Source: an uncultured Candidatus Saccharibacteria bacterium (lineage in GTDB: Bacteria > Patescibacteriota > CPR2 > UBA1875 > CAIMLA01). Taken from it: DNA of 64,000 nt. A model generated the notes under the pieces. That model was not told where the DNA came from, did no database searches, and worked only from the letters and a program-made list of their open reading frames with translations. The stretch is from positions 91,464 to 155,463 of the forward strand of contig CAZXMN010000001.1 in NCBI GenBank assembly GCA_964641375.1, given 5' to 3'. This document shows, piece after piece, positions 6,954 to 51,053 of this stretch; positions within the stretch are counted from its first letter, which is position 1, and each line of letters begins with the position of its first letter. A program made the translations under genes and the position numbers.

Positions 6954-7580
6954 CTAACCTCTCACCACAACTACTGATTTACGTGGACCAGGAACGGCAC
7001 CACGGATTGCGATAGTTCCATTTGTTGTATCAACTTTGACAACTTTTAGATTTTTCACAGTCACTTGCTCAGCACCCATATGGCCAGCCATATGCATACC
7101 CTTCATGACATGTTCCGGATAACCAGCGCCGATAGAACCAGGTGCACGATAATTATGTGAACCATGAGTCTTTGGACCAGTTGTGAAGTTGTGACGTTTG
7201 ATTGTTCCGGCGAAACCCTTACCTTTTGAAGTACCAGTTACCTGGACTAAATCACCTTCAGTAAAGATATCAACTGTCAATTTGTCACCGACTTTGTAAC
7301 TTTTTGCCTCTTCGCCTTCGACTTCGACTTCTTCGTTGAGGTTAAATTCACGAAAAACCTTGGCAGCTACTCCAGCTGCTTTGGTGTGACCGGCCATTGG
7401 CTTGTTAATATTCTTGTCCAAGCCGAAGCCGAGCTGCACGGCACTATAACCGTCTTTCCCTACCGTCTTAACTTGAACAACAGTACACGGACCAATCTCG
7501 AGGACGGTCACCGGTACCACATTCCCCTTCTCATCGAAGAGGTGGGTCATTCCGATTTTCTTACCTAGAAGTGCCTTCAT
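6954..7580 (-). CDS. rplC: 50S ribosomal protein L3
   Basis: 208 aa ORF, MKALLGKKIGMTHLFDEKGNVVPVTVLE..., the L3 family. Confidence 0.94.
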   Translation of the reverse strand: MKALLGKKIGMTHLFDEKGNVVPVTVLEIGPCTVVQVKTVGKDGYSAVQLGFGLDKNINKPMAGHTKAAGVAAKVFREFNLNEEVEVEGEEAKSYKVGDKLTVDIFTEGDLVQVTGTSKGKGFAGTIKRHNFTTGPKTHGSHNYRAPGSIGAGYPEHVMKGMHMAGHMGAEQVTVKNLKVVKVDTTNGTIAIRGAVPGPRKSVVVVRG

Positions 7581-7743
7581 TGTTCACCTTTTTTAACACA
7601 ATAAAATATATTTCGACAGATAGACAGTTTCCATTTCTAGACTATTCTATCCCCCGACGCGTGCTTGTTTATACTTAATTAACGCATGAAATATTATATA
7701 GAAATTCAGAGAGAATGTCAACGATTTTGTGTGTAAAACGTAA

Positions 7744-7775
7744 GAGGACCGACTACCCGTAGGTAATTGGTCCTC
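7744..7775 (-). terminator. GC-rich stem-loop immediately 3-prime of the island A ORF; candidate intrinsic terminator
   Basis: GAGGACC...GGTCCTC 7-bp outer stem with an inner CTAC/GTAG stem. On the minus strand it is followed by TTACGTTTT. Confidence 0.45.
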
Positions 7776-7803
7776 AGAACGTCGAAAGTGGTACTTACAG
7801 AAG

Positions 7804-8169
7804 TTACTTGATCTCTTCGTCCGGAACGAACATCGTGATCGCGACGTTGGCCAGCCGCTTGTGCTGGCAGTCGTATTCGTTCGCGACGAAGTCGTAGATC
7901 GGTCCGATCCCCTTCTTGAGAGGCTGGATCGATACGCCGTAACCGCCCTTCATGCCCACCACGCGAGCTTGACCAGGTTCCTCCATGAAACCATGGTCCA
8001 GAAGCCATGCTGTGCCATGCTCGGTGAGCTCCTGACGGAACTTCTCACCGTTCTTGTCGTCGCGCACCGCATCGGTCTCGATGCAAGTGTCGCCGATCTT
8101 GCTCTCGACGCCTGAGCTTTCGAGCTCGGCCCCAAGCGCACGGATGGTTCTCTCATTGAGATCAGGCAT
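7804..8169 (-). CDS. Hypothetical 121-aa protein in a GC-rich cassette inserted between rplC and rpsJ (island A)
   Basis: ATG start at 8169 with GGGGG about 12 nt upstream; stop at 7804 followed by a hairpin. The amino-acid composition looks protein-like, and no family is recognised. Local GC is about 55-59% against low-40s % flanks. The antisense frames look like junk. Confidence 0.5.
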   Translation of the reverse strand: MPDLNERTIRALGAELESSGVESKIGDTCIETDAVRDDKNGEKFRQELTEHGTAWLLDHGFMEEPGQARVVGMKGGYGVSIQPLKKGIGPIYDFVANEYDCQHKRLANVAITMFVPDEEIK

Positions 8170-8275
8170 TACCTGTTGTGCCCCCTTTTCGATTGTCGAC
8201 GTTCATGTCTACTCTTGTAGACACTAAAATATAACATTTTTATGTCTATTTGTCAATATAAAGTAAGTAGATACC

Positions 8276-8302
8276 AAAAGAGCCCCTTTCGGGGCTCTTT
8301 TA
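8276..8302 (-). terminator. Intrinsic terminator downstream of rpsJ (bidirectional hairpin)
   Basis: AGAGCCCC-tttc-GGGGCTCT stem-loop flanked by A-run and T-run. On the minus strand it follows the rpsJ stop and is followed by TTTTGG. Confidence 0.6.
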
Positions 8303-8318: not shown

Positions 8319-8639
8319 TTACATCTTGATTTCGATATCTACACCGGCTGGTAGTGAAAGACTCATGAGTGAATCCACAGTCTTGGCAGAGAAATCTGTG
8401 ATGTCGATTAGTCTCTTGTGCACTCTCATTTCGAATTGCTCACGTGAGTTCTTGTCAATGAAGCTTGCGCGCTGTACAGTAATCGGCGTGCGATCAGTAG
8501 GAAGTGGGATTGGACCCGCTACCTTGGCACCGCTGCGGACTGCTGTTTCGATAATCTGAGCCGTGGACTGATCGATAATCTTGTTATCGTAAGCCTTGAG
8601 CTTAATGCGGATTCTTTGTTTGTCTTTAGTTTCAGCCAT
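8319..8639 (-). CDS. rpsJ: 30S ribosomal protein S10
   Basis: 106 aa [21 protein letters not shown]...[10 protein letters not shown], the S10 family. Confidence 0.94.
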
Positions 8640-8658: not shown

Positions 8659-9834
8659 TTATTTATTGATTTTGGTTACTGCACCAGCACCAACTGTACG
8701 GCCACCTTCACGAATAGCGAAGCGAAGACCTTCTTCGATAGCGATTGGCTGAATAAGTTTAACCTTCATTTTGACGTCATCACCAGGCATAACCATTTCG
8801 CCGTCAAATTCGATTTCGCCAGTTACGTCAGTCGTACGGATGTAGAACTGAGGCTTATAGCCCTTGAAGAAAGGCGTATGACGACCACCCTCGTCCTTGG
8901 TCAAGACATAGACTTGAGCGTCGAACTCGGTGTGAGGTGTGATAGAGCCTGGCTTAGCCAGAACCATACCACGTTCAATGTCGGCTTTTTCAATACCGCG
9001 GAGTAACAGACCAGCATTGTCGCCAGCTTGACCTTGCTCAAGTTGTTTCTTGAACATTTCAATACCGGTAACGACCGTCTTGCGAGTAGGTTTAATACCA
9101 ACAATTTCAACTTCATCGTTAAGTTTCACAGTACCACGAGCGATAGCGCCGGTAGCAACCGTTCCACGTCCCTTGATGCTGAAAACGTCTTCAACAGGCA
9201 TAAGGAATGGCTTGTCGATGTCGCGAACTGGATCTGGAATATAGTTATCAAGTGCGTCCATAAGTTCTGTGATGGCACCAACATACTTCTCGTCACCTTC
9301 AAGAGCCTTGAGAGCTGAACCACGAATAATAGGAGTGTTATCTCCGTCAAATTCGTATTTAGTCAAAAGCTCACGAATTTCCATCTCAACGAGATCAAGC
9401 ATTTCAGCATCATCAACCATATCAACTTTGTTCATGAAAACAACGATTTTTGGTACACCAACTTGCTTAGCGAGTAGGATGTGCTCACGAGTCTGAGGCA
9501 TAGGACCGTCAGTGGCAGCAACTACAAGAATAGCGCCGTCCATCTGAGCAGCACCGGTAATCATGTTTTTGACGTAGTCAGCATGTCCTGGGCAGTCGAC
9601 ATGGGCGTAGTGACGCTTCTCTGTCTCATACTCAGAGTGGTGAGTAGCGATGGTAATACCGCGCTCTCTCTCTTCTGGAGCGTTGTCAATTTCGTCAAAC
9701 TTCTCAACCTTAGCCATACCTTTCTTGCCCTGAACAGCAAGAATAGCAGCGGTTAGAGTCGTTTTACCATGGTCAACGTGTCCAATTGTACCGACGTTTA
9801 CATGGGGTTTTGTTCTCTGATAAACTTCAGCCAT
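8659..9834 (-). CDS. tuf: Elongation factor Tu
   Basis: [31 protein letters not shown]...; G-domain motifs [14 protein letters not shown] and NKVD. The likely ATG is at 9834; the track ORF is extended upstream. Confidence 0.95.
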
Positions 9835-9927
9835 TTTGTTCCCTTCTTTTATCTTTTTAACTTTTCTTTGACAATCCAAACCCTCCACACGCTTGGCGCG
9901 GAGAAAATGTATTTAGTTTGCCTACGA

Positions 9928-9956
9928 ATTCTACTATAAATTACTACTTTGTGCAA
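9928..9956 (-). promoter_or_regulatory. Candidate sigma70-type promoter for tuf (TTGCAC-N17-TAGAAT on the minus strand)
   Basis: -35 at 9951-9956 and -10 at 9928-9933 with a 17-bp spacer, about 90 nt upstream of the tuf ATG. Confidence 0.4.
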
Positions 9957-10012
9957 TAGTTTTGATAAACGAAAAGGCCACGTACCCGCCTAGTCGTCTG
10001 CTTTCACAGAAC

Positions 10013-10033
10013 TTGCGTGTTCGTGACCCTACT
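10013..10033. repeat. 21-bp direct repeat copy 1 (ttgcgtgttcgtgaccctact)
   Basis: Matches 10241-10261 at 20 of 21 positions. Lies just 3-prime of small ORF1 and overlaps its stop. Confidence 0.8.
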
Positions 10034-10217
10034 GGTTGCTCTCGGAGCCAGAGATGGCTTCGTCGTAACGACGAAGATTCTCCTTACGATCGTGATCCTC
10101 CTCTGCCCGCCGACGACCTTCAGTGAGACCGGTGCGGAAAACCGTTCCGACAAGAACGAATACGAGGAGTACCAGCGCCAGAATCGAGAAGACTATCGCC
10201 CAAACTGCAAGACTCAC
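10029..10217 (-). CDS. Small single-pass membrane peptide 1 (62 aa, GTG start) in GC-rich island B
   Basis: MSLAVWAIVFSILALVLLVFVLVG then a charged tail. The N-terminal WAIV motif is shared with peptide 3. GAGGGGGG lies upstream. Confidence 0.45.
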   Translation of the reverse strand: MSLAVWAIVFSILALVLLVFVLVGTVFRTGLTEGRRRAEEDHDRKENLRRYDEAISGSESNQ

Positions 10218-10240
10218 AGAACTACCCCCCTCGAGAAAAA

Positions 10241-10261
10241 TTGCGTGTTCGTGGCCCTACT
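10241..10261. repeat. 21-bp direct repeat copy 2 (ttgcgtgttcgtggccctact)
   Basis: 20/21 identical to copy 1. Lies just 3-prime of small ORF2. Confidence 0.8.
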
Positions 10262-10416
10262 CAGTCGTCATGGGAGTAGCTGAGTTTGACCTCTTCCTCG
10301 GCGTTGAACCTCCTGACTCTCTTAGAGAAGATCACCAAAATGTTCACGGCGAGGTAGACCAAGAGTCCGATGATTACCGCTAAAACCTCATAAATGAAAC
10401 AGCCAATCCGTTTCAT
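10261..10416 (-). CDS. Small single-pass membrane peptide 2 (51 aa) in island B
   Basis: ATG at 10416 preceded by AAATGGGAGGAACG (strong SD). MKRIGCFIYEVLAVIIGLLVYLAVNILVIF then a charged tail. Confidence 0.5.
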   Translation of the reverse strand: MKRIGCFIYEVLAVIIGLLVYLAVNILVIFSKRVRRFNAEEEVKLSYSHDD

Positions 10417-10468
10417 CGTTCCTCCCATTTCATTTAAAGAGTTCAGTAGCGGCTCTGCATTGAGGATT

Positions 10469-10582
10469 CTAATCCTCTTCGTAGAGATCCTGGTAAAGAT
10501 GAACAAGCGCCTCGAGGGCAACTAAGACCATGACAGCACCTGCGGCGATTACCACGACGATAGCCCATCCCCACCAAGGCAT
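10469..10582 (-). CDS. Small single-pass membrane peptide 3 (37 aa) in island B
   Basis: ATG at 10582 preceded by GGGGGAATC; MPWWGWAIVVVIAAGAVMVLVALEALVHLYQDLYEED. Too short for the ORF track. Paralogous to peptide 1 through the WAIV motif. Confidence 0.45.
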   Translation of the reverse strand: MPWWGWAIVVVIAAGAVMVLVALEALVHLYQDLYEED

Positions 10583-10642
10583 GATTCCCCCAGTTTTCTC
10601 AGGTACGCGCCGCCAGGCGCGAACACTTGGCTTTGTGCCGTG

Positions 10643-10671
10643 ATTATAATGCAGAAATGAATTATTTGCAA
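10643..10671 (-). promoter_or_regulatory. Candidate near-consensus promoter (TTGCAA-N17-TATAAT) reading into island B
   Basis: -35 at 10666-10671 and -10 at 10643-10648 on the minus strand with a 17-bp spacer. Immediately downstream of the fusA terminator. A CGCGCC/GGCGCG hairpin lies in the leader. Confidence 0.5.
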
Positions 10672-10675
10672 TAAT

Positions 10676-10700
10676 AAAAGAGGCCTGGAAGGCCTCTTTT
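10676..10700 (-). terminator. Intrinsic terminator downstream of fusA
   Basis: AAAAGAGGCC-tgga-aGGCCTCTTTT hairpin with T-run. Confidence 0.6.
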
Positions 10701-10729
10701 ATTTGAACAAATTATTTATTCAATAATTA

Positions 10730-35084: not shown

Positions 35085-35780
35085 TTATTCTTCTTCTTTT
35101 TCCGGTTCTACCGTTTCTGTGTTTTCTTCCACTTCGGCACCTTCACCATCTTTACCGTGCTCAAGGTCATTTTCTGCTTTATCAATGCCTTCTGCCACTT
35201 CTTCCTCTTGAATTTCTTGATGATCACTCTCAGCTTCGTCAGGAGTCACGATATCCTCTGCATCAGCCTCTTTGTTCTCGGCTTTTGCGATTTCGTCTAT
35301 AGAAACTTCTTTTGTTTCGATCTCGTTGTCTTTGATTTCAGTTGCATCAAGCTCGGTAATTTCAGCATCTAAGTCTTCGGTCGCTGGAGCTAAATCCTCA
35401 GGTTTGAGTTCTTCTTCTTTCACATTGACAGCGAGTGAATCAAACCTCTGGTCCTTAAGCTTAGCAGCTTTACCACGTAGATCACGAAGATATGTCAGAT
35501 AAGCGCGGCGGACTTCAGCTCTTTTGCGAATTTCAATTTTCGCAAGCTTTGGCGACTGGATAAGAAAAGTACGCTCAACACCAATGCCATAAGAAATCTT
35601 ACGAACTGTGAAGGTTTGCTGGACACCGCTACCTTTGACACGGATTACTACGCCTTCAAAAACTTGGATACGTTCTTTGCTACCTTCAATAATTTTAGTA
35701 TGTACACGAACAGTGTCACCAGGTTTTAGATCTGGGACGTTCTTTAACTGTTTATCTGTCATGTCGTCAATTGCTTTCAT
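35085..35780 (-). CDS. rplS: 50S ribosomal protein L19 with a long acidic C-terminal extension
   Basis: The N-terminal ~115 aa match the L19 family. They are followed by ~115 aa rich in Glu/Asp. Confidence 0.88.
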
Positions 35781-35905
35781 CTTTTCTCCTGTAACACGCG
35801 AGGAATATTATAGCGGATTTAAACATCTTCGTCAACCAATAAATACGTAAAAGGCGCGTTCCACCTTGCTTTTATACATTGGCATAACGCGCCTTGTTCA
35901 CCTTC

Positions 35906-35942
35906 GGGGCTCCGCACCGTTTGCGCAGCGGTGCGGAGCCCC
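35906..35942. other. Perfect 14-bp GC-rich inverted repeat (stem-loop) at the 3-prime edge of island C
   Basis: GGGGCTCCGCACCG-tttgcgcag-CGGTGCGGAGCCCC. A second hairpin, CGTCC-acgcggccgcg-GGACG, lies at 35951-35971. No U-tract follows either. Confidence 0.7.
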
Positions 35943-36007
35943 TAGGGTATCGTCCACGCGGCCGCGGGACGAAGAGTTGTCAAACTAGGAAGCCAAACGA
36001 GCTGGAC

Positions 36008-36448
36008 CTACCTCATGTCGTTGGCTCGTTCTTGGTCCTCGACGAGCATCCTGGGGTCCAAACCTCGCTGGACTACTGTCGAAGAGTGAGGACACGGGTT
36101 GCACCCCATCGTACTCGTACGCCAGGATCGAACGTCCTTCAGCACCTCATCCCGAACCGGACGAGGAATGCTGTAGGGATTGCCAGGGCTCTCAGCCAGG
36201 AAGGCCTCGAGATGCCGCATAACCGTACAGACCGTAGGGTCGTCACAGTTGTGCTGGGCGACGCCATGGAGCCTATCCCTCAGAGCGAGGATCTGTGCAG
36301 CTGCGTGGACTTCCCCACTGCCGGTAAAGTGCCGACCAGCGGTTTCAACCTCCACTACAGCTTGAGAAATCCTCTCCTCGGTCGGATGTGAAAGAACCTC
36401 CTTGTGGATCTTCTGAAGATCCAGAACCCCTGTAACGGACTCGCTCAT
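36008..36448 (-). CDS. Hypothetical 146-aa protein (island C, downstream gene of a two-gene cassette)
   Basis: ATG at 36448 with GAAGGG SD. His/Cys-rich. GC about 58%. No family recognised. Confidence 0.45.
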   Translation of the reverse strand: MSESVTGVLDLQKIHKEVLSHPTEERISQAVVEVETAGRHFTGSGEVHAAAQILALRDRLHGVAQHNCDDPTVCTVMRHLEAFLAESPGNPYSIPRPVRDEVLKDVRSWRTSTMGCNPCPHSSTVVQRGLDPRMLVEDQERANDMR

Positions 36449-36478
36449 CTTTGTTGCCCTTCTTCTGTGATTGCGGCG

Positions 36479-36688
36479 CTAGGCCGCGGGCTGCGGCTGG
36501 GCGGAACGGACTGAGATGAGACTCCTACTCGCTTTGAGCTTGGTGGTGCCTTCCCCTTGGGCGAGGACGTTTCCCTTGGTGTCCTTCGCCATAGCGACGA
36601 CGTTGCCACGACTGACACGATTGTAGCCGTGACTACGTGTATCCCTCACGAACACGATCCGAACTGGGGTCTTACCTATCATGGCCAT
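36479..36688 (-). CDS. Hypothetical 69-aa protein (island C, upstream gene)
   Basis: ATG at 36688 preceded by GGGGGAAAGAGT; 30-nt gap to the 146-aa ORF. A candidate TTGCTA-N17-TATGAT promoter lies upstream in AT-rich DNA. Confidence 0.45.
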   Translation of the reverse strand: MAMIGKTPVRIVFVRDTRSHGYNRVSRGNVVAMAKDTKGNVLAQGEGTTKLKASRSLISVRSAQPQPAA

Positions 36689-36858
36689 ACTCTTTCCCCC
36701 AAAGCCTCGAAGTGACCTTTCACTAAGACACTTCTTGGTTAGGGACTGCCGTGCGCCATACGCTCACCTTCTTCTGCTAGATTGACTGACAAAGAACAAT
36801 ACAAAAAATATCATACAATAATTATTCGCTTTTAGCAAGCCTTTTATATCAAAAAAAT

Positions 36859-39800
36859 TTAATTTTCGTTTAAGCGTTTGCGAATTGAATCCGCTAGCTT
36901 TTCTGAATATTTAATCCCAAAAGGTAATTTCACTTTTTTAGGTCCTGAGGGTCCGTTCGGAACAAAGACATAGACTGGCGCTTCGCCCTTATTCGCAGCT
37001 AATTTATATTTGATATCATTTAAAGCCTCCGCGGTAGTACCACGTGGTATAAAAATGTCTACAACTCCCTTGCTGTCAATCTGCACGGATTGAGTGATTA
37101 ACGGATCAATTACCTGCATTTCAGCTTCCTCCTGGTTTTCCGTAAGTTTAATAGCTTTATCTACAATCACCTTGATTTGCCCGTCTTTTGTGCTCACCTT
37201 ACCGCGAATCAAAATAATATTACCAGTGACCCAAAGATCGGGAGTTTCTTCAATCACCTTAGGAAATACTATCAACTCAGTTTTTCCCGTATGATCCTCA
37301 AACCAAGCAAAATACATAAGTTGCTTAGTCCTGGTCATTACTTTTTGGATATTTGCAAGAACTCCGCCAATTTTGACAGTTTGATTGTTCATTTCTTCGG
37401 TAAGTTCAACTATAGGATTTACTTTGAGTTTCAAAAGCTGTTCCTTGTATTCGTTCATTGGATGCTCTGATATATAAATGCCGAGCAAGTCTTTTTCATA
37501 CCTAAGTTTCTCAGCAGTTGACATCTTGGTCTGGGCTGGTTCAAGTTTGAGAGATGGCATTTCTACTCCACTACCACCAAAAAGATCAATCTGACCGTTG
37601 GCAGCAGTACCTTGAGCCTTTGATGAATAAGATAATATGCGCTCCATATTGGCAAGCAGAGTCGCCCTCTCGCCGAATTCGTCCATTGCTCCGCTTTTAA
37701 TAAGTGATTCCAGCATTTTCTTATTAACTTCCGACGTATGAACACGTTTTGCAAAGTCTTCAACAGAAGAGAATTTGCCACCTTCTTCTCTAGCAGCCAG
37801 AATGGCCTCAATCGGCCCCATACCTACATTTTTGATTGCCATCAGACCAAAACGTATCTTTCCTGTCTCTTTCACAACACCAAACTCCGCAAAAGATTCA
37901 TTGACATCCGGGGGCAAAACTTCAATCCCCATTCGCTGACATTCGTCAATTTCAATAGTTATACGATCCATGTTGCCGTAGTCAGAAGTCATAAGCGCAG
38001 ACATGAATGCAGCCGGATAGTGAGCCTTCAGATTTGCAGTCCAATAGGAAATAAGAGCATAACAGGCAGCATGAGACTTATTGAAAGCATATTGTGCAAA
38101 AGTCTCCCAACCATCGAATATTTCATTTGCCAACTTCTCAGGGACGTCATTTGTATCCTTTGCACCCTTTACGAATTCACCCCTCATTTGCTTTAAAAGC
38201 GTAGGATTCTTTTTACCGATTGCCTTACGCAAAGTATCAGCTTGTCCACCTGTAAAACCAGCTAAATCTTTCGATACTTGCATAACTTGTTCCTGATAAA
38301 CCGTAATCCCATAGGTATTCTTGAGTGCGGTCTCCATAGCTGGATGCTGATATTTAATAGCTTTCTTGCCATGTTTACGAGCGATAAACTCGGGGATATT
38401 TTCCATAGGACCCGGCCTATATAGAGCACCCATAGCAATAATGTCTTCAAAAACAGTCGGTTTTAACTCCTTTATATAGCGTTTCATCCCAGCTGACTCA
38501 AACTGGAAAACTCCAGTAGTTTCACCTTTAGATAATAGTTTGTATGTTTGAGCATCATCAATGGGCATCGTATACAAATCGATATCTACATCATTGACCT
38601 TCTTGATGATGCGCATTGCGTTTTTGATGACTGTCAGGTTAGAGAGTCCCAAAAAGTCCATCTTAAGTAGTCCGAGCTCCTCTATCGCATGCATTTCATA
38701 TTGTGTATTTGTTGCTAGATCGCCCCTAGTCGCCCGCTGCAGTGGAGTATATTGGACTAAAGGATCCTTGGATATCACCACACCGGCAGCATGAGTAGAA
38801 GAATGCCTGGCCACTCCTTCCAGTTTCGTCGCAAGGTCGATAAGATGTTTTACGTCTAGTTCACTAGTATAGGCCGCTCTGAGTTCTTGGCTAGTGTTTA
38901 ATGCCTCAGAAAGTTTAATATTGAGGACTTCCGGTACCATCTTGGCAATTCTATCAACGTCTCCATAAGCTAGTCCTAGTACTCTACCCACATCACGGAT
39001 GGCATTTCTAGCTTTCATAGTACCAAAAGTGATTATCTGTGCCACTCGATCCTGGCCATATTTTTCGGTTACATAAGCAATTACCTCGTGACGCCTGTCG
39101 TCAGCAAAGTCCATGTCCACATCAGGCATAGAAATACGATCTGGATTCAGAAATCTCTCAAAAAGTAAGTCGTATTGCATCGGTTCTAGGTCAACAATAC
39201 CGAGAGCATAGGCCACAACCGACCCTGCAGCAGAACCACGACCTGGACCGACCACAATACCCTGATTTTTGGCCCAATTAACGTAATCCTGTACGATAAG
39301 GAAATAGCCCTCATAACCCATTTTTTCGATAACCTTCAGCTCGTATTCTAGTCTTTCTTTAAGTTCAGGTGTTTTTTTGCCATAACGTCTGGCAATGCCC
39401 TCGTCGACTAATTTCTCCAGATATTTACCTTCCGTCAAACCGTCTGGTGTTGGAAAGTCAGGTATCAAAATGCCACCTAGTTCGATAGTGAGATCGCACA
39501 TCTCGGCAATTTTCACTGTGTTTTCGAAGGCCTCTGGCACGTCCGGAAAAGCTGCTAGCAGATCTTCATAAGTGCGCATGCTGTTATCCATGTTCATCTT
39601 CATGCGATCTTCATCTGTGACCATTTTGCCCATTTGGACACAAAGAAGAACATCCTGAGCCTCTGCATCATCTTTATTCACATAGTGAACATCATTTGTC
39701 ACTACCAGACCAATTCCAGTCTCCTTCGAGATTTTTTTCAAACCTTCATTAGCAATACGTTGGTCTTCGGCGCCTGGCTGATCTTGCAACTCGAGATAAT

Positions 39801-40323
39801 AATAGTCTTTTCCAAAAATCTCTTGATATTCCAGGGCAGCTTTCTTCGCTTTCTCGTAATCTCCGTTTACGATTGTTCTGGCCGGTTCACCGTTTAAGCA
39901 TGCAGACATACCGATCAGTCCCTCTGAATATTGTCTAAGAGTATCTTTGTCTATTCTAGGTTTGTAATAATAGCCATCGATGTGTGCTATAGTTACCAAC
40001 TTCATAAGGTTCTGGTAACCGGTCTTATTCCTAGCTAGTAGTACCAAATGGTAAGGTTTAGCATCAACCCTCGCTTCTTTGTCATGTAAAGTTCTAGGTG
40101 CAACATAACATTCGCAACCAATTATCGGTTTTATATCTCTTTTTTTGGCTTCTTTGTAAAATTCGATTGCTCCGTACATGACACCATGATCAGTGATCGC
40201 CATGGCTGGCATCCCGAGCTCTTTAGCTTTATCTAGATAGTCTGGGATTTTACCCATACCATCAAGTAGCGAGTAGTGGGTATGGACATGCAGATGAACG
40301 AATTTTGCTTTGTTTTCGGCCAA
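36859..40323 (-). CDS. dnaE: DNA polymerase III alpha subunit
   Basis: 1154 aa ORF with an N-terminal PHP domain (HLHVHTHYSLLDG) plus polymerase core and OB domains. Confidence 0.93.
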   Translation of the reverse strand: MAENKAKFVHLHVHTHYSLLDGMGKIPDYLDKAKELGMPAMAITDHGVMYGAIEFYKEAKKRDIKPIIGCECYVAPRTLHDKEARVDAKPYHLVLLARNKTGYQNLMKLVTIAHIDGYYYKPRIDKDTLRQYSEGLIGMSACLNGEPARTIVNGDYEKAKKAALEYQEIFGKDYYYLELQDQPGAEDQRIANEGLKKISKETGIGLVVTNDVHYVNKDDAEAQDVLLCVQMGKMVTDEDRMKMNMDNSMRTYEDLLAAFPDVPEAFENTVKIAEMCDLTIELGGILIPDFPTPDGLTEGKYLEKLVDEGIARRYGKKTPELKERLEYELKVIEKMGYEGYFLIVQDYVNWAKNQGIVVGPGRGSAAGSVVAYALGIVDLEPMQYDLLFERFLNPDRISMPDVDMDFADDRRHEVIAYVTEKYGQDRVAQIITFGTMKARNAIRDVGRVLGLAYGDVDRIAKMVPEVLNIKLSEALNTSQELRAAYTSELDVKHLIDLATKLEGVARHSSTHAAGVVISKDPLVQYTPLQRATRGDLATNTQYEMHAIEELGLLKMDFLGLSNLTVIKNAMRIIKKVNDVDIDLYTMPIDDAQTYKLLSKGETTGVFQFESAGMKRYIKELKPTVFEDIIAMGALYRPGPMENIPEFIARKHGKKAIKYQHPAMETALKNTYGITVYQEQVMQVSKDLAGFTGGQADTLRKAIGKKNPTLLKQMRGEFVKGAKDTNDVPEKLANEIFDGWETFAQYAFNKSHAACYALISYWTANLKAHYPAAFMSALMTSDYGNMDRITIEIDECQRMGIEVLPPDVNESFAEFGVVKETGKIRFGLMAIKNVGMGPIEAILAAREEGGKFSSVEDFAKRVHTSEVNKKMLESLIKSGAMDEFGERATLLANMERILSYSSKAQGTAANGQIDLFGGSGVEMPSLKLEPAQTKMSTAEKLRYEKDLLGIYISEHPMNEYKEQLLKLKVNPIVELTEEMNNQTVKIGGVLANIQKVMTRTKQLMYFAWFEDHTGKTELIVFPKVIEETPDLWVTGNIILIRGKVSTKDGQIKVIVDKAIKLTENQEEAEMQVIDPLITQSVQIDSKGVVDIFIPRGTTAEALNDIKYKLAANKGEAPVYVFVPNGPSGPKKVKLPFGIKYSEKLADSIRKRLNEN

Positions 40324-50303: not shown

Positions 50304-50388
50304 TGGTGCCCGGGGCGGGACTTGAACCCGCAAGACCGAAGCCAACGGATTTTAAGTCCGTCGCGTATACCAATTCCGCCACCCGGGC
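50304..50388 (-). tRNA. tRNA-Leu (anticodon TAA), type II
   Basis: Acceptor GCCCGGG/CCCGGGC, T-arm GCGGG-TTCAAGT-CCCGC, anticodon loop CTTAAAA, CCA encoded. Confidence 0.85.
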
Positions 50389-50395
50389 GTATAAG

Positions 50396-50469
50396 TGGAG
50401 GCCTGACCCGGAATTGAACCGGGGTACGCGGTTTTGCAGACCGCTGCGTAACCACTCCGCCATCAGGCC
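50396..50469 (-). tRNA. tRNA-Cys (anticodon GCA)
   Basis: Hand-folded cloverleaf with anticodon stem-loop GCGGT-CTGCAAA-ACCGC and T-loop TTCAATT. Confidence 0.85.
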
Positions 50470-50490
50470 ACGTCTGAGGAAAAGATAAAA

Positions 50491-50565
50491 TGGAGCGGGA
50501 GACGGGGATCGAACCCGCGACCTCAACCTTGGCAAGGTTGCGCTCTACCGCTAAGCTACTCCCGC
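50491..50565 (-). tRNA. tRNA-Gly (anticodon GCC)
   Basis: Anticodon stem-loop CAACC-TTGCCAA-GGTTG, T-loop TTCGATC, CCA encoded. Confidence 0.85.
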
Positions 50566-50568
50566 AAG

Positions 50569-50644
<76 letters not shown>

Positions 50645-50657
50645 ATGATTATTTTTT

Positions 50658-50734
50658 TGGTGGGCGCCAAGGGATTCGAACCCCTGACCCTCTCGGTGTA
50701 AACGAGATGCTCTAACCAGCTGAGCTAGGCGCCC
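50658..50734 (-). tRNA. tRNA-Val (anticodon TAC)
   Basis: GGGCGCCTAGCTCAGCTGGTTAGAGC, anticodon loop TTTACAC, T-loop TTCGAAT. Confidence 0.85.
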
Positions 50735-50966
50735 ACGTCAGCGCAAGCTAACGTGTTACACAGAACCGCCAATAGGCGTCTGTTTCACACTTTCGCTATG
50801 CCTCCTCTCCAGTCAAAATCGACAGATTTTGCCTGAGGGGAAACGGAACGAAGTGGTCCCTGCCGAGAAAATTTGTAATTTTCTCGGAAAAAGGAACATC
50901 TACGAAGGTGCAGAGCGATTGGCTTTAGCCAACTCATGAAGACCGAAGTAGGATGCGACGACGCAG

Positions 50967-51053
50967 TGGTGCGGACGAGAGGACTTGAACCTCCAAGGCC
51001 TTGCGGCCACTAGCCCCTCATGCTAGCGCGTATACCAATTCCGCCACGCCCGC
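50967..51053 (-). tRNA. tRNA-Leu (anticodon GAG), type II
   Basis: Shares the D-arm TGGCGGAATTGGTATACGCG with the other two Leu tRNAs. Anticodon loop ATGAGGG, T-arm GGAGG-TTCAAGT-CCTCT. Confidence 0.8.

What the first reader, a model, noticed from the sequence alone, without database searches (positions are those of the whole stretch)
7735..8175. GC-rich 121-aa gene with its own terminator splits rpsJ from rplC in the S10 operon
rpsJ-rplC adjacency is one of the most conserved gene pairs in bacteria. Here rpsJ is followed by an intrinsic terminator (8276-8302) and an AT-rich promoter-like spacer. Then comes a 121-aa ORF in roughly 57% GC DNA, ending in a nested GC hairpin followed by a TTTT run (7744-7775). 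Another AT-rich spacer precedes rplC. The protein has normal composition and no recognisable family. Either rplC-onward genes are now driven from a new promoter in 7580-7740, or read-through occurs. Inserting a foreign-looking gene at this position is unusual.
Basis: partly seen in the sequence, partly recalled or inferred. Interest (0 to 1): 0.7.

Follow-up and report, generated by a model that had tools for sequence, protein, structure and literature searches.

The report
Orphan gene cassette between ribosomal operons
A real but family-less 121-amino-acid gene sits between rpsJ and rplC of a Saccharibacteria (TM7) genome. In this phylum those two genes are separate transcription units with a variable spacer between them, so the gene fills a gap and does not break an operon.

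Summary
A 121-aa ORF (7804-8169, minus strand; GC 0.58, GC3 0.75 against a window mean of 0.39) lies between rpsJ and rplC. It has a near-consensus promoter, and hairpins lie on both sides.

It is a real gene. At least 11 independent assemblies give the same arrangement. A sister species carries a 64%-identical ortholog at the same site, with dN/dS of about 0.15.

The organism is a Saccharibacterium. In 48 of 51 related loci, rpsJ and rplC are at least 450 bp apart (median 1.27 kb). rpsJ ends the tuf operon. rplC has its own promoter and a covarying attenuator-like leader, which a covariance model finds upstream of rplC in 59 of 62 sources. The rplC promoter is therefore ancestral, not new, and the spacer is a phylum-wide variable site.

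The gene is not a recent arrival. Its promoter, 5'UTR and 3' hairpin are also conserved in a more distant relative, around a barely similar 119-aa ORF. There that ORF heads an array of five small GC3-rich orphan ORFs bracketed by GACGTCGA-type repeats.

No Pfam, NCBIfam, PADLOC or significant PHROG match was found, and no fold assignment. The biochemical function is unknown. I infer an abundant, fast-evolving accessory binding protein.

The parts
8659..9834 (-). tuf (EF-Tu). Its stop lies 19 nt before the rpsJ start, so rpsJ is the distal gene of the tuf transcription unit.
   Evidence: gene callers give 391 aa with Pfam GTP_EFTU domains. No promoter-like site lies between tuf and rpsJ.
8319..8639 (-). 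rpsJ (ribosomal protein S10).
   Evidence: Pfam Ribosomal_S10 on the called gene.
8276..8301 (-). Intrinsic terminator of the tuf-rpsJ unit (GAGCCCC-GAAA-GGGGCUC followed by UUUU).
   Evidence: I8, 11 nt, 100% complementary. (-27.5 kcal/mol, z -5.9). Conserved in L092 with a changed loop. Analogous hairpins with a T run follow rpsJ in L018, L098 and L100.
8228..8256 (-). Promoter of the 121-aa gene: TTGACA, 17 nt, TG-n-TATATT (extended -10).
   Evidence: 11/12, TG present. The -35 box, TG and -10 box are invariant in window, L092 and L100.
8207..8222 (-). Hairpin GUCUAC-AAGA-GUAGAC at the predicted 5' end of the transcript.
   Evidence: Conserved in L092. In L100 an A-to-G change keeps the pair as G-U (GTCTGC...GTAGAC), which favours a role as RNA. 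It is the only exact copy in the 64 kb.
8196..8204 (-). 5' arm (GAACGTCGA) of the inverted repeat that brackets the ORF.
   Evidence: I12, 9 nt, 100%. It is the only copy in the window. The arm is conserved in L092 and L100. It pairs with the 3' arm in both the MFE and the centroid fold of the predicted mRNA.
7804..8169 (-). The 121-aa ORF: a soluble, acidic (pI 4.8, 13.4 kDa) orphan protein.
   Evidence: GC1/2/3 is 0.62/0.37/0.75. dN/dS is 0.146 against the L092 ortholog. The exact protein is found on more than 21 contigs, always at this site. The AF2 model has pLDDT 71 and a beta-alpha-beta4 fold. There is no hydrophobic segment.
8102..8146 (-). Population polymorphism: a 45-bp in-frame deletion (about residues 9-23) in one contig that is otherwise 100% identical (L011).
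   Evidence: (alignment A1).
7777..7785 (-). 3' arm (TCGACGTTC) of the bracketing inverted repeat.
   Evidence: Conserved in L100 and degenerate in L092.
7744..7775 (-). 3' hairpin of the cassette (14-bp nested stem, loop UACG). The terminator tail is weak or non-canonical.
   Evidence: I3; z -4.65. The stem is conserved in L092 and L100. The mismatch position shifts, and the outer stem carries a paired A/T insertion.
7693..7721 (-). Promoter of the rplC operon: TTGACA, 17 nt, TATAAT.
   Evidence: 12/12. A TTGACA box sits at a comparable distance in relatives. It is 100% conserved in L092.
7599..7663 (-). Structured leader of rplC. It is a terminator-like stem that encloses a conserved AGGUC...GAAACC internal loop and is followed by a U tract (candidate r-protein attenuator).
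   Evidence: Covariance model hit at 33.5 bits, E 1.5e-5. Covariation is shown.
6954..7580 (-). rplC (L3), first gene of the rplC-rplD-rplW-rplB... operon.

Best explanation
The 121-aa ORF is a genuine, lineage-restricted protein-coding gene. It forms its own one-gene transcription unit inside a spacer between two operons.

In Saccharibacteria, rpsJ is the last gene of the tuf unit and ends at an intrinsic terminator. rplC starts a separate operon with its own sigma-70-type promoter and a conserved attenuator-like leader. The DNA between them is a phylum-wide variable site. The gene therefore interrupts nothing.

The cassette reads, in order: a near-consensus extended -10 promoter, a 5'-terminal hairpin, a GGGGG Shine-Dalgarno-like box, the ORF, and a stable 3' hairpin. 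A 9-bp inverted repeat is predicted to pair the 5'UTR with the 3'UTR.

This promoter and UTR frame dates at least to the common ancestor shared with the L100 lineage (L3 75% identical). The recognisable protein is shared only with one sister species (64% identity, purifying selection).

Inference, not shown:
- The hairpins and end-to-end pairing stabilise the mRNA, so the small acidic alpha+beta protein is made abundantly.
- It belongs to a pool of fast-turning-over, GC3-rich small accessory proteins, most plausibly binding or neutralising proteins of the immunity or anti-defence type.
- These proteins are kept or exchanged at this site by homologous recombination through the highly conserved flanking ribosomal genes in a naturally competent lineage.
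For: Real gene:
- GC1/2/3 is 0.62/0.37/0.75, with first- and second-position GC like those of the neighbouring genes.
- dN/dS is 0.146, with dS 1.7.
- An in-frame 45-bp deletion allele exists.
- Assemblies from JGI, ENA and Logan are 99.9-100% identical.

Independent unit:
- rpsJ terminator.
- Promoter scoring 11/12 with TG.
- 3' hairpin with z -4.65.

Not an operon split:
- Gap statistics over 51 loci.
- Empty site in L018.
- Heterogeneous gap contents, including a 37-member membrane-protein cluster, sequences that look by eye like enzymes (not searched against family libraries), and many orphans.
- The rplC promoter and leader are conserved. The covariance model hits once per locus, upstream of rplC, in 59 of 62 sources. 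85% of cells are paired against 70.6% in shuffles, 14 of 17 pairs show compensatory changes, and slid controls score 0.134 or less against 0.479.

Age:
- Ortholog at the same site in L092.
- The 5' and 3' flanks are conserved in L100 around a 119-aa ORF.

mRNA structure:
- z is -6.35 for the whole transcript and -5.86 for the L100 cassette. The 5'-3' helix appears in both the MFE and the centroid folds.

Cassette pool:
- L100 has five ORFs with GC3 of 0.58-0.66, bracketed by GACGTCGA motifs and GC hairpins.
- L098 has a different ORF in the spacer with GC3 of 0.58.

Competence and recombination at intergenic sites in Saccharibacteria: PMC10633639.
Against: - No donor was found, in 15 billion proteins, phages, plasmids or viral contigs.
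- Homology between ORF121 and the L100 119-aa ORF is marginal (Smith-Waterman z 3.4-3.6, p about 0.004). Replacement of the ORF and extreme divergence cannot be told apart.
- High GC3 persists despite dS of about 1.7, which a single old transfer with amelioration does not explain.
- Transcription starts and ends are predicted, not measured.
- The 3' arm of the inverted repeat is degenerate in L092.
Confidence: 0.7

Rival explanations
1. A foreign gene recently inserted into an ancestral rpsJ-rplC operon, split it, and forced a new promoter to arise for rplC and the genes after it.
For: GC and GC3 are foreign-looking. The gene is absent from the closest genome-collection (GTDB) relatives L012-L020. 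Promoters lie on both sides.
Against: The two genes are unlinked across the phylum. The rplC promoter and leader are conserved and covary in 59 of 62 sources. The empty site in L018 already has a terminator, promoter and leader. The ortholog and the cassette frame are shared with L092 and L100.
Confidence: 0.04
2. Assembly chimera: the GC-rich piece comes from another organism.
For: The GC step at both junctions is abrupt.
Against: The same 1686-bp region, at 99.9-100% identity, occurs in 11 contigs from three assembly sources and several samples. A sister species has the same layout. The AT-rich promoter and UTRs continue into the cassette and are conserved.
Confidence: 0.01
3. The GC3-rich composition is not a mark of foreign origin. 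It is maintained in place by selection, for example for a very stable, highly structured mRNA. On this view the gene is native to the lineage.
For: GC3 stays at 0.75 and 0.64 in two orthologs separated by dS of about 1.7. The unrelated cassette ORFs in L100 and L098 share the bias. The ORF RNA alone folds with z -3.6 and the whole transcript with z -6.35. No donor was found.
Against: No native gene in the 64 kb shares the bias, except other small inter-operon orphans. De novo birth from AT-rich spacer DNA would not give GC-rich codons. The dS estimate rests on 82 sites and is near saturation.
Confidence: 0.3
4. The spacer is a site-specific cassette array, like an integron. The GACGTCGA-type inverted repeats are recombination sites through which ORFs are swapped.
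For: Every ORF in the L100 array is bracketed by the motif: 9 copies in 3 kb against about 0.1 expected. The inter-ORF modules are about 80% identical, while the ORFs are unrelated except c4/c5. The same bracket surrounds ORF121 in the window. Different ORFs sit inside a conserved frame.
Against: No recombinase is adjacent; the flanks are tuf-rpsJ and rplC. The motif does not fit the attC consensus. At least the first two cassettes of the L100 array and the window cassette carry their own promoters, unlike integron cassettes. The repeats also make a plausible RNA helix. The motif is lost at the 3' side in L092 while the gene persists.
Confidence: 0.12
5. The ORF is spurious and the functional product is a structured non-coding RNA.
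For: The fold z-scores are very negative. Overlapping ORFs occur in other frames, as expected in GC-rich DNA.
Against: dN/dS is 0.146. Conserved blocks such as EPGQARVVGM and YGVSIQPLK coexist with heavy synonymous change. Codon-position GC is periodic only in this frame. Gaps between orthologs and the deletion allele are all in frame. No Rfam hit.
Confidence: 0.03

Closest known systems
Archaeal-type layout of the str/S10 region: S12-S7-(fusA)-EF1a-S10, with the uL3-uL4-uL23 cluster separate (PMC10833476). From my own knowledge, cyanobacteria and plastids also place rps10 after tufA.
   Same: rpsJ follows tuf directly (19-nt spacer). rplC heads its own cluster. rpsJ and rplC are not co-transcribed.
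   Different: Here the two clusters remain neighbours on the same strand in most Saccharibacteria. A variable, gene-bearing spacer separates them.
Multigene insertions between concatenated translation operons (rpoBC-str-S10-spc-alpha) in Gammaproteobacteria (PMC6735719, abstract seen).
   Same: Accessory DNA accumulates at the boundaries between highly conserved operons, not inside them.
   Different: The boundary used here lies after rpsJ, not before it. The content is small orphan ORFs with conserved UTR frames.
E. coli S10-operon leader, where L4 stimulates transcription termination and blocks translation (PMC3616713).
   Same: A structured 5' leader containing a terminator hairpin and U tract lies directly ahead of the operon that encodes L3 and L4. 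This is the anatomy expected of an autogenous attenuator.
   Different: It lies upstream of rplC, not rpsJ. It is a single long irregular hairpin with an AGGUC/GAAACC internal loop, not five hairpins. No Rfam family matches it. The effector protein is unknown.
Integron gene cassettes and cassette arrays without an integrase.
   Same: Tandem small ORFs, mostly of unknown function and on one strand, are separated by repeated imperfect palindromes (L100).
   Different: There is no attC consensus and no integrase. At least the first two cassettes of the L100 array and the window cassette have their own promoters. The window holds a single cassette.
Taxonomically restricted (orphan) genes and arrays of orphan immunity or anti-defence genes in variable hotspots flanked by core genes (my own knowledge).
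   Same: The products are small, acidic and soluble. The sequences diverge fast, the composition is atypical, and the genes sit in a hotspot between core genes.
   Different: There is no cognate toxin or effector, no defence-system hit, and no mobility genes.

Membership tests
E. coli-type S10 operon (led by rpsJ) | rpsJ is immediately followed by rplC and co-transcribed with it | tested here: not met
   A 738-bp spacer separates them. It holds a terminator, a separate gene and a 12/12 promoter. The genes are unlinked in 48 of 51 related loci.
E. coli-type S10 operon (led by rpsJ) | An L4-responsive leader lies upstream of rpsJ | tested here: not met
   rpsJ starts 19 nt after tuf. No Rfam leader hit. 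The structured leader lies upstream of rplC instead.
Ribosomal-protein autoregulatory leader (attenuator class) | A conserved RNA structure in the 5'UTR of an r-protein operon, supported by covariation | tested here: met
   The model hits once per locus, upstream of rplC, in 59 of 62 sources. 14 of 17 pairs show compensatory changes, and covariation is 0.479 against 0.216 in shuffles and 0.134 or less in slid controls.
Ribosomal-protein autoregulatory leader (attenuator class) | A terminator stem followed by a U tract | tested here: met
   The outer helix is followed by TTTT(A/T) in nearly all 37 curated leaders.
Ribosomal-protein autoregulatory leader (attenuator class) | Binding by an encoded r-protein (L4 or L3), with a regulatory response | not testable with these tools
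   This needs binding and in vitro termination assays.
Integron gene cassette | An attC site with RYYYAAC...GTTRRRY cores | tested here: not met
   The bracketing repeats are GAACGTCGA/TCGACGTTC, and GACGTCGAC-hairpin-GTCGACC in L100. This was judged by reading the sequence; no attC covariance model was available.
Integron gene cassette | An adjacent tyrosine-recombinase integrase and a common promoter driving promoterless cassettes | tested here: not met
   The flanks are tuf-rpsJ and rplC. The cassette has its own 11/12 promoter.
Horizontally acquired island | Atypical base composition and codon usage | tested here: met
   GC3 is 0.746 against 0.388 +/- 0.073.
Horizontally acquired island | An identifiable donor or homologs outside the lineage | tested here: not met
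   Only P0001 (an allele) and P0002 (the sister species) are related. Nothing was found in phages, plasmids or viral contigs.
Horizontally acquired island | Mobility hallmarks: a tRNA target, direct repeats, or an integrase or transposase | tested here: not met
   No tRNA lies nearby. No direct repeats flank the cassette. There are no mobility genes.
Intrinsic terminator (for the 3' hairpin at 7744-7775) | A GC-rich stem immediately followed by a U tract | tested here: inconclusive
   The stem is strong. In the window the T run follows only after TTACG. In L092 it is absent, and in L100 it is present as TTTTT.
Mog1/PsbP/DUF1795-like fold (SciW, DcrB, Mog1) | Significant structural superposition | tested here: inconclusive
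Known anti-phage defence or toxin-antitoxin components | A profile match, or an adjacent partner gene | tested here: not met
   PADLOC gave no hit. The unit contains a single gene.

The most novel reading that the evidence does not exclude
In this Saccharibacteria family, the rpsJ|rplC spacer may be a dedicated expression slot or cassette array, and other inter-operon spacers may be too. Unrelated small GC3-rich ORFs would be exchanged within a conserved frame: promoter, 5' hairpin, GGGGG box, ORF, 3' hairpin, all bracketed by GACGTCGA-type inverted repeats. That would be a cassette system with no integrase nearby. The exchange could run through natural competence and recombination in the ultra-conserved ribosomal flanks. 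Alternatively, the repeats could act as RNA elements that close each cistron into a stable unit.
Probability: 0.15. Interest if true: 0.75.

Novelty: new variant of a known kind. Interest (0 to 1): 0.45.

Why it matters
The headline claim, that a foreign gene broke one of the most conserved operon junctions, dissolves. In Saccharibacteria that junction is not an operon junction at all.

Three points remain useful:
1. The S10 operon of a whole phylum starts at rplC, behind a previously uncatalogued, covarying attenuator-like leader. This makes ribosomal-protein autoregulation in candidate phyla radiation (CPR) bacteria directly testable.
2. The spacer is a phylum-wide hotspot for lineage-specific genes in otherwise minimal genomes. 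These are prime candidates for epibiont-host or epibiont-phage interactions.
3. In this family the hotspot holds orphan cassettes with conserved UTR frames and bracketing repeats. This organisation has no clear precedent and deserves a genome-wide survey.

Tried and rejected
Protein searches that found no family:
- Pfam, NCBIfam, PHROGs and PADLOC on ORF121 and its ortholog gave no significant match.
- A PDB profile search gave nothing.
- tblastn against phages and plasmids gave one chance hit at E 0.4.
- Scans of viral and metagenome contigs with the protein alignment gave nothing.
- Four of the six phmmer hits (P0003-P0006) are internally repetitive proteins whose weak matches add up. I rejected them as artefacts.

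Structure:
- The single-sequence AF2 model was too poor to use (pLDDT 52).
- The 3-sequence model (pLDDT 71) gave no significant fold match.
- The afdb50 library was not available.

Motifs and repeats:
- I first dismissed the 9-bp inverted repeat as chance, because its 3' arm is degenerate in L092. I reinstated it when L100 showed both arms and the same motif around every cassette.
- A DNA-uptake-sequence role for GACGTCGA is rejected: the motif is not over-represented in the 64 kb.
- The operator-like palindrome TAGACAT...ATGTCTA over the promoter is not conserved in L092.
- The GTCTAC-N4-GTAGAC palindrome is unique in the window, so it does not mark a regulon.
- A 15-mer scan of viral contigs for the L100 module returned only single chance matches.

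Other checks:
- The membrane protein that fills this spacer in 37 other Saccharibacteria loci is unrelated to ORF121 and absent from the window.
- Literature searches found no description of the rpsJ|rplC split or of an rplC leader in Saccharibacteria. That is absence from the searchable library only.
Full report
**1. The observation**

The region reads, on the minus strand, as follows:
- tuf (8659-9834), followed 19 nt later by rpsJ (8319-8639).
- A perfect 11-bp hairpin with a T run at 8276-8301.
- An AT-rich stretch with TTGACA-17-TG-n-TATATT at 8256..8228.
- A 121-aa ORF at 7804-8169.
- A nested 14-bp hairpin at 7744-7775.
- A second AT-rich stretch with a perfect TTGACA-17-TATAAT at 7721..7693.
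- rplC (6954-7580) and the rest of the S10/spc genes.

The promoter scan, repeat finder and folding confirm these elements. The ORF has GC 0.579. By codon position its GC is 0.62/0.37/0.75. Positions 1 and 2 match the neighbouring genes. Position 3 is about 4.9 sd above the mean of 57 window ORFs (0.388 +/- 0.073).

The one weakness is the terminator tail of the 3' hairpin, which is not canonical.

**2. It is a real gene and not an assembly artefact**

The exact protein is on record in 23 blocks of the public assembly collection. Ten loci were fetched, from JGI, ENA and Logan assemblies, and all show rpsJ-ORF-rplC. Their DNA is 99.87-100% identical to the window across the 1686-bp region.

One further contig (L011) is 100% identical except for a 45-bp in-frame deletion inside the ORF.

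An exhaustive phmmer search of 1.84 billion cluster representatives found only that allele and one true homolog, P0002 (123 aa, 64% identity). The other four hits are repeat-protein artefacts.

P0002 lies between rpsJ and rplC on a contig from a sister species. Identities to the window are EF-Tu 97%, S10 97%, L3 87.5% and L4 91%.

Nei-Gojobori analysis gives dN 0.247, dS 1.69 and dN/dS 0.146 for the ORF. The flanking translation genes give dN/dS of 0.02-0.06. The ORF is under purifying selection and evolves about 3.6 times faster than L3 at non-synonymous sites.

**3. The organism and the junction**

A scan with L3 against one genome per species places the window in Saccharibacteria (TM7). The nearest representatives are only 64% identical in L3.

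Measuring the rpsJ-rplC distance in these loci changes the picture:
- Of 51 loci holding both genes, the median gap is 1267 bp.
- 48 gaps are at least 450 bp, and only three are 250 bp or less.
- 12 loci have rpsJ on the opposite strand.
- 12 further loci have no rpsJ within 4 kb upstream of rplC.

The gaps hold heterogeneous content:
- A conserved membrane protein of about 90-130 aa, in 37 loci.
- Several sequences that look by eye like known enzymes (a DEAD-box helicase, NUDIX hydrolases, an isopentenyl-diphosphate isomerase, a deacetylase and a PfkB kinase). I did not test these against family libraries.
- Many small ORFs with no family.

L018 shows the empty state: rpsJ, a terminator, 45 nt, TTGACA, the leader, then rplC, all within 205 bp.

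So rpsJ belongs to the tuf unit in this phylum. The same holds in archaea, where S10 follows EF-1a and is separate from uL3-uL4-uL23 (PMC10833476).

**4. rplC has an ancestral promoter and a structured leader**

A TTGACA box lies 115-200 nt upstream of rplC in nearly all relatives. Promoter-like scores there clearly exceed those in coding DNA: 22% of upstream regions score at least 10.5, against 0.3% of coding windows.

Downstream of the promoter lies a conserved RNA. It consists of:
- An outer helix, for example CUUGGUG/CACCAAG, CUGGGAAG/CUUGCCAG or, in the window, UCGGGGGAUAG/CUAUCUGUCGA.
- An inner helix.
- A conserved AGGUC...GAAACC internal loop around a variable hairpin.
- A U tract at the 3' end.

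A covariance model built from 37 curated leaders hits exactly once per locus. Each hit is on the gene strand, immediately upstream of rplC. This holds in 59 of 62 sources (0.52 Mb, both strands), including many sources not in the seed. The window hit is at 7599-7663.

Covariation on the resulting alignment is strong:
- 85.1% of cells pair, against 70.6% in shuffles.
- 14 of 17 pairs show changes on both sides.
- The covariation score is 0.479, against 0.216 in shuffles (0 of 500 reach it) and 0.134 or less when partners are slid.

No Rfam family matches the region.

By anatomy this is a transcription attenuator. Its closest analogue is the L4-controlled S10 leader of E. coli (PMC3616713). The effector protein is not known.

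For the finding, the consequence is direct. The promoter in 7580-7740 is old and conserved, and was not created by an insertion.

**5. The cassette frame is older than the recognisable protein**

A scan of metagenome contigs for a 19-mer from the leader recovered relatives at intermediate distance (L3 75-80% identical): L098, L100/L103 and L108.

In L100 the first gene after the rpsJ terminator is a 119-aa ORF. Its upstream region aligns with the window's: TTGACA, TG-n-TATATT, GUCUGC-AAAA-GUAGAC, ACGAACGTCGACAA, a GGGGG box, then ATG CCT. Its downstream region aligns too: TTTCGACGTTC followed by the GAGGACC...TACCTACGGGTA...GGTCCTC hairpin.

The hairpin changes are of the kind that keeps an RNA stem. 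An A-U pair becomes G-U in the 5' hairpin. A paired A/T insertion and shifted mismatches occur in the 3' hairpin.

The proteins themselves are only marginally similar (Smith-Waterman z 3.4-3.6). The ORF has either diverged far beyond the rate seen between the window and L092, or been replaced inside a conserved frame.

L098 carries a different ORF of about 143 aa, with its own consensus promoter and GC hairpin.

All these spacer ORFs are GC3-rich (0.58-0.66), while their flanking r-protein genes are at 0.40-0.44. None matches Pfam, PHROGs, PADLOC or NCBIfam significantly.

**6. Bracketing repeats and mRNA structure**

In the window, the 9-mer GAACGTCGA lies 27 nt upstream of the start codon. 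Its exact complement lies 18 nt after the stop codon. Neither occurs anywhere else in the 64 kb.

L100 has the same pair around its first cassette. Its four further ORFs (93, 120, 102 and 168 aa) are each preceded by TTTGACGTCGA(A/G)C. Each is followed by (T)GACGTCGAC, a GC hairpin and GTCGACC. That makes nine motif copies in 3 kb, where about 0.1 is expected. The inter-ORF modules are about 80% identical, while the ORFs are unrelated except c4/c5.

Folding the predicted ORF121 transcript gives a 5'-terminal hairpin, a long-range helix between the two repeat arms that encloses the ORF, and the 3' hairpin. This appears in both the MFE and the centroid structures, with z -6.35. The L100 cassette behaves the same way (z -5.86). 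The ORF alone gives z -3.6.

I read these as mRNA-stabilising features. That is an inference. A role as recombination sites is not excluded, but nothing like an integrase or an attC site is present.

**7. The protein**

The protein is 13.4 kDa with pI 4.8, no hydrophobic segment and two cysteines.

AF2 with the three-sequence alignment gives pLDDT 71 and pTM 0.67. The model has a low-confidence N-terminal helix, which is the part removed in the deletion allele. This is followed by a beta-alpha-beta4 alpha+beta core.

My best guess is an abundant, fast-evolving binding or neutralising accessory protein. It rests only on size, charge, the hotspot context and the turnover of neighbouring cassettes.

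**8. Origin**

The composition argues against a typical native gene, and no donor was found.

High GC3 has persisted through dS of about 1.7 in two lineages. The unrelated cassettes of L100 and L098 share the bias. Neither fact fits a single transfer followed by amelioration.

Two explanations remain:
- The bias is selected, perhaps through RNA structure.
- Copies are repeatedly re-imported from an unsampled GC-richer pool.

Saccharibacteria are naturally competent and recombine linear DNA at intergenic sites (PMC10633639). The near-invariant ribosomal genes on both sides would serve as homology arms. This is an inference.

**9. Verdict**

The feature is real and was described accurately. It does not violate a conserved operon. 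It is a lineage-specific orphan gene cassette in an ancestral, phylum-wide variable inter-operon spacer.

The unexpected results lie around it. One is the rplC leader. The other is the conserved cassette frame with bracketing repeats.

Noticed in passing
window 7599-7663 (-); also upstream of rplC in L012-L108: A conserved, covarying, terminator-like leader RNA with an AGGUC...GAAACC internal loop and a U tract precedes rplC in 59 of 62 Saccharibacteria sources. No Rfam family matches it. It is a candidate new ribosomal-protein attenuator, with L4 or L3 as possible effector.
   Followed up: yes
L012-L091, gap between rpsJ and rplC: rpsJ and rplC are unlinked across Saccharibacteria: the median gap is 1.27 kb, and rpsJ is inverted in the 12 oral-type loci. 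A membrane protein of about 90-130 aa occupies the spacer in 37 loci. It has a basic N-terminus and the motif ..FLLKLVLYLILGSLWLK..PVGL..HEHFQIDRKIEYAVLL.., with no Pfam hit. It is absent from the window.
   Followed up: partly
L100 4289-7319 (same genes in L103): An array of five same-strand, GC3-rich orphan ORFs (119, 93, 120, 102 and 168 aa) lies between rpsJ and rplC. The ORFs are separated by repeated modules: GACGTCGAC, a GC hairpin, GTCGACC, CTAGGGAGACCTAG, then TTTGACGTCGA. Only the fourth and fifth ORFs look paralogous.
   Followed up: partly
window 35808-36790 (between dnaE 36859-40323 and rplS 35085-35780): A second GC-rich island (up to 0.61) holds two minus-strand orphan ORFs: 69 aa (36479-36688) and 146 aa (36008-36448, GC3 0.63). 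GC-rich hairpins follow them. The 146-aa protein has only two relatives (73% and 59% identity) among 5.8 billion clusters and no family hit. This is the same kind of inter-operon orphan cassette.
   Followed up: partly
window 9889-10729 (between fusA and tuf): An 840-bp spacer has its own terminator and a TTGCAA-17-TATAAT promoter. It holds small GC3-rich ORFs predicted to encode single-pass membrane peptides (51 aa and 62 aa, and possibly a third of about 37 aa upstream), and a direct repeat TAGGG(C/T)CACGAACACGCAA. tuf then has its own promoter-like site at 9955..9928.
   Followed up: no
window 8170-8190, 10585-10600, 36690-36705; L100 4700-4712: The GC3-rich cassettes share a GGGGG box ahead of the start codon. 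The native ribosomal genes nearby use GGTGA-type or weak sites. This hints at common expression signals or a common origin for the cassettes. It was seen by eye only.
   Followed up: no
L092 2600-2860: The sister species has about 270 bp extra between the rpsJ terminator and the cassette promoter. The extra DNA contains GTCATCCTGAAC...GTCATTCTGAGTGA...GAAGAATCTC-type repeat sequences. This is further evidence that the spacer accepts insertions.
   Followed up: no
window 8102-8146: A natural 45-bp in-frame deletion allele of the 121-aa gene (L011) removes the predicted N-terminal helix. It was found on one contig, against more than 21 contigs with the full-length form.
   Followed up: partly
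window 35085-35780: rplS (L19) encodes a 231-aa protein with a long, highly acidic C-terminal extension of about 110 residues rich in E and D. This is unusual for L19.
   Followed up: no
window 50304-51053: A cluster of six tRNA genes (Leu-Cys-Gly-Phe-Val and a second Leu) explains the fourth GC-rich peak in the window.
   Followed up: yes
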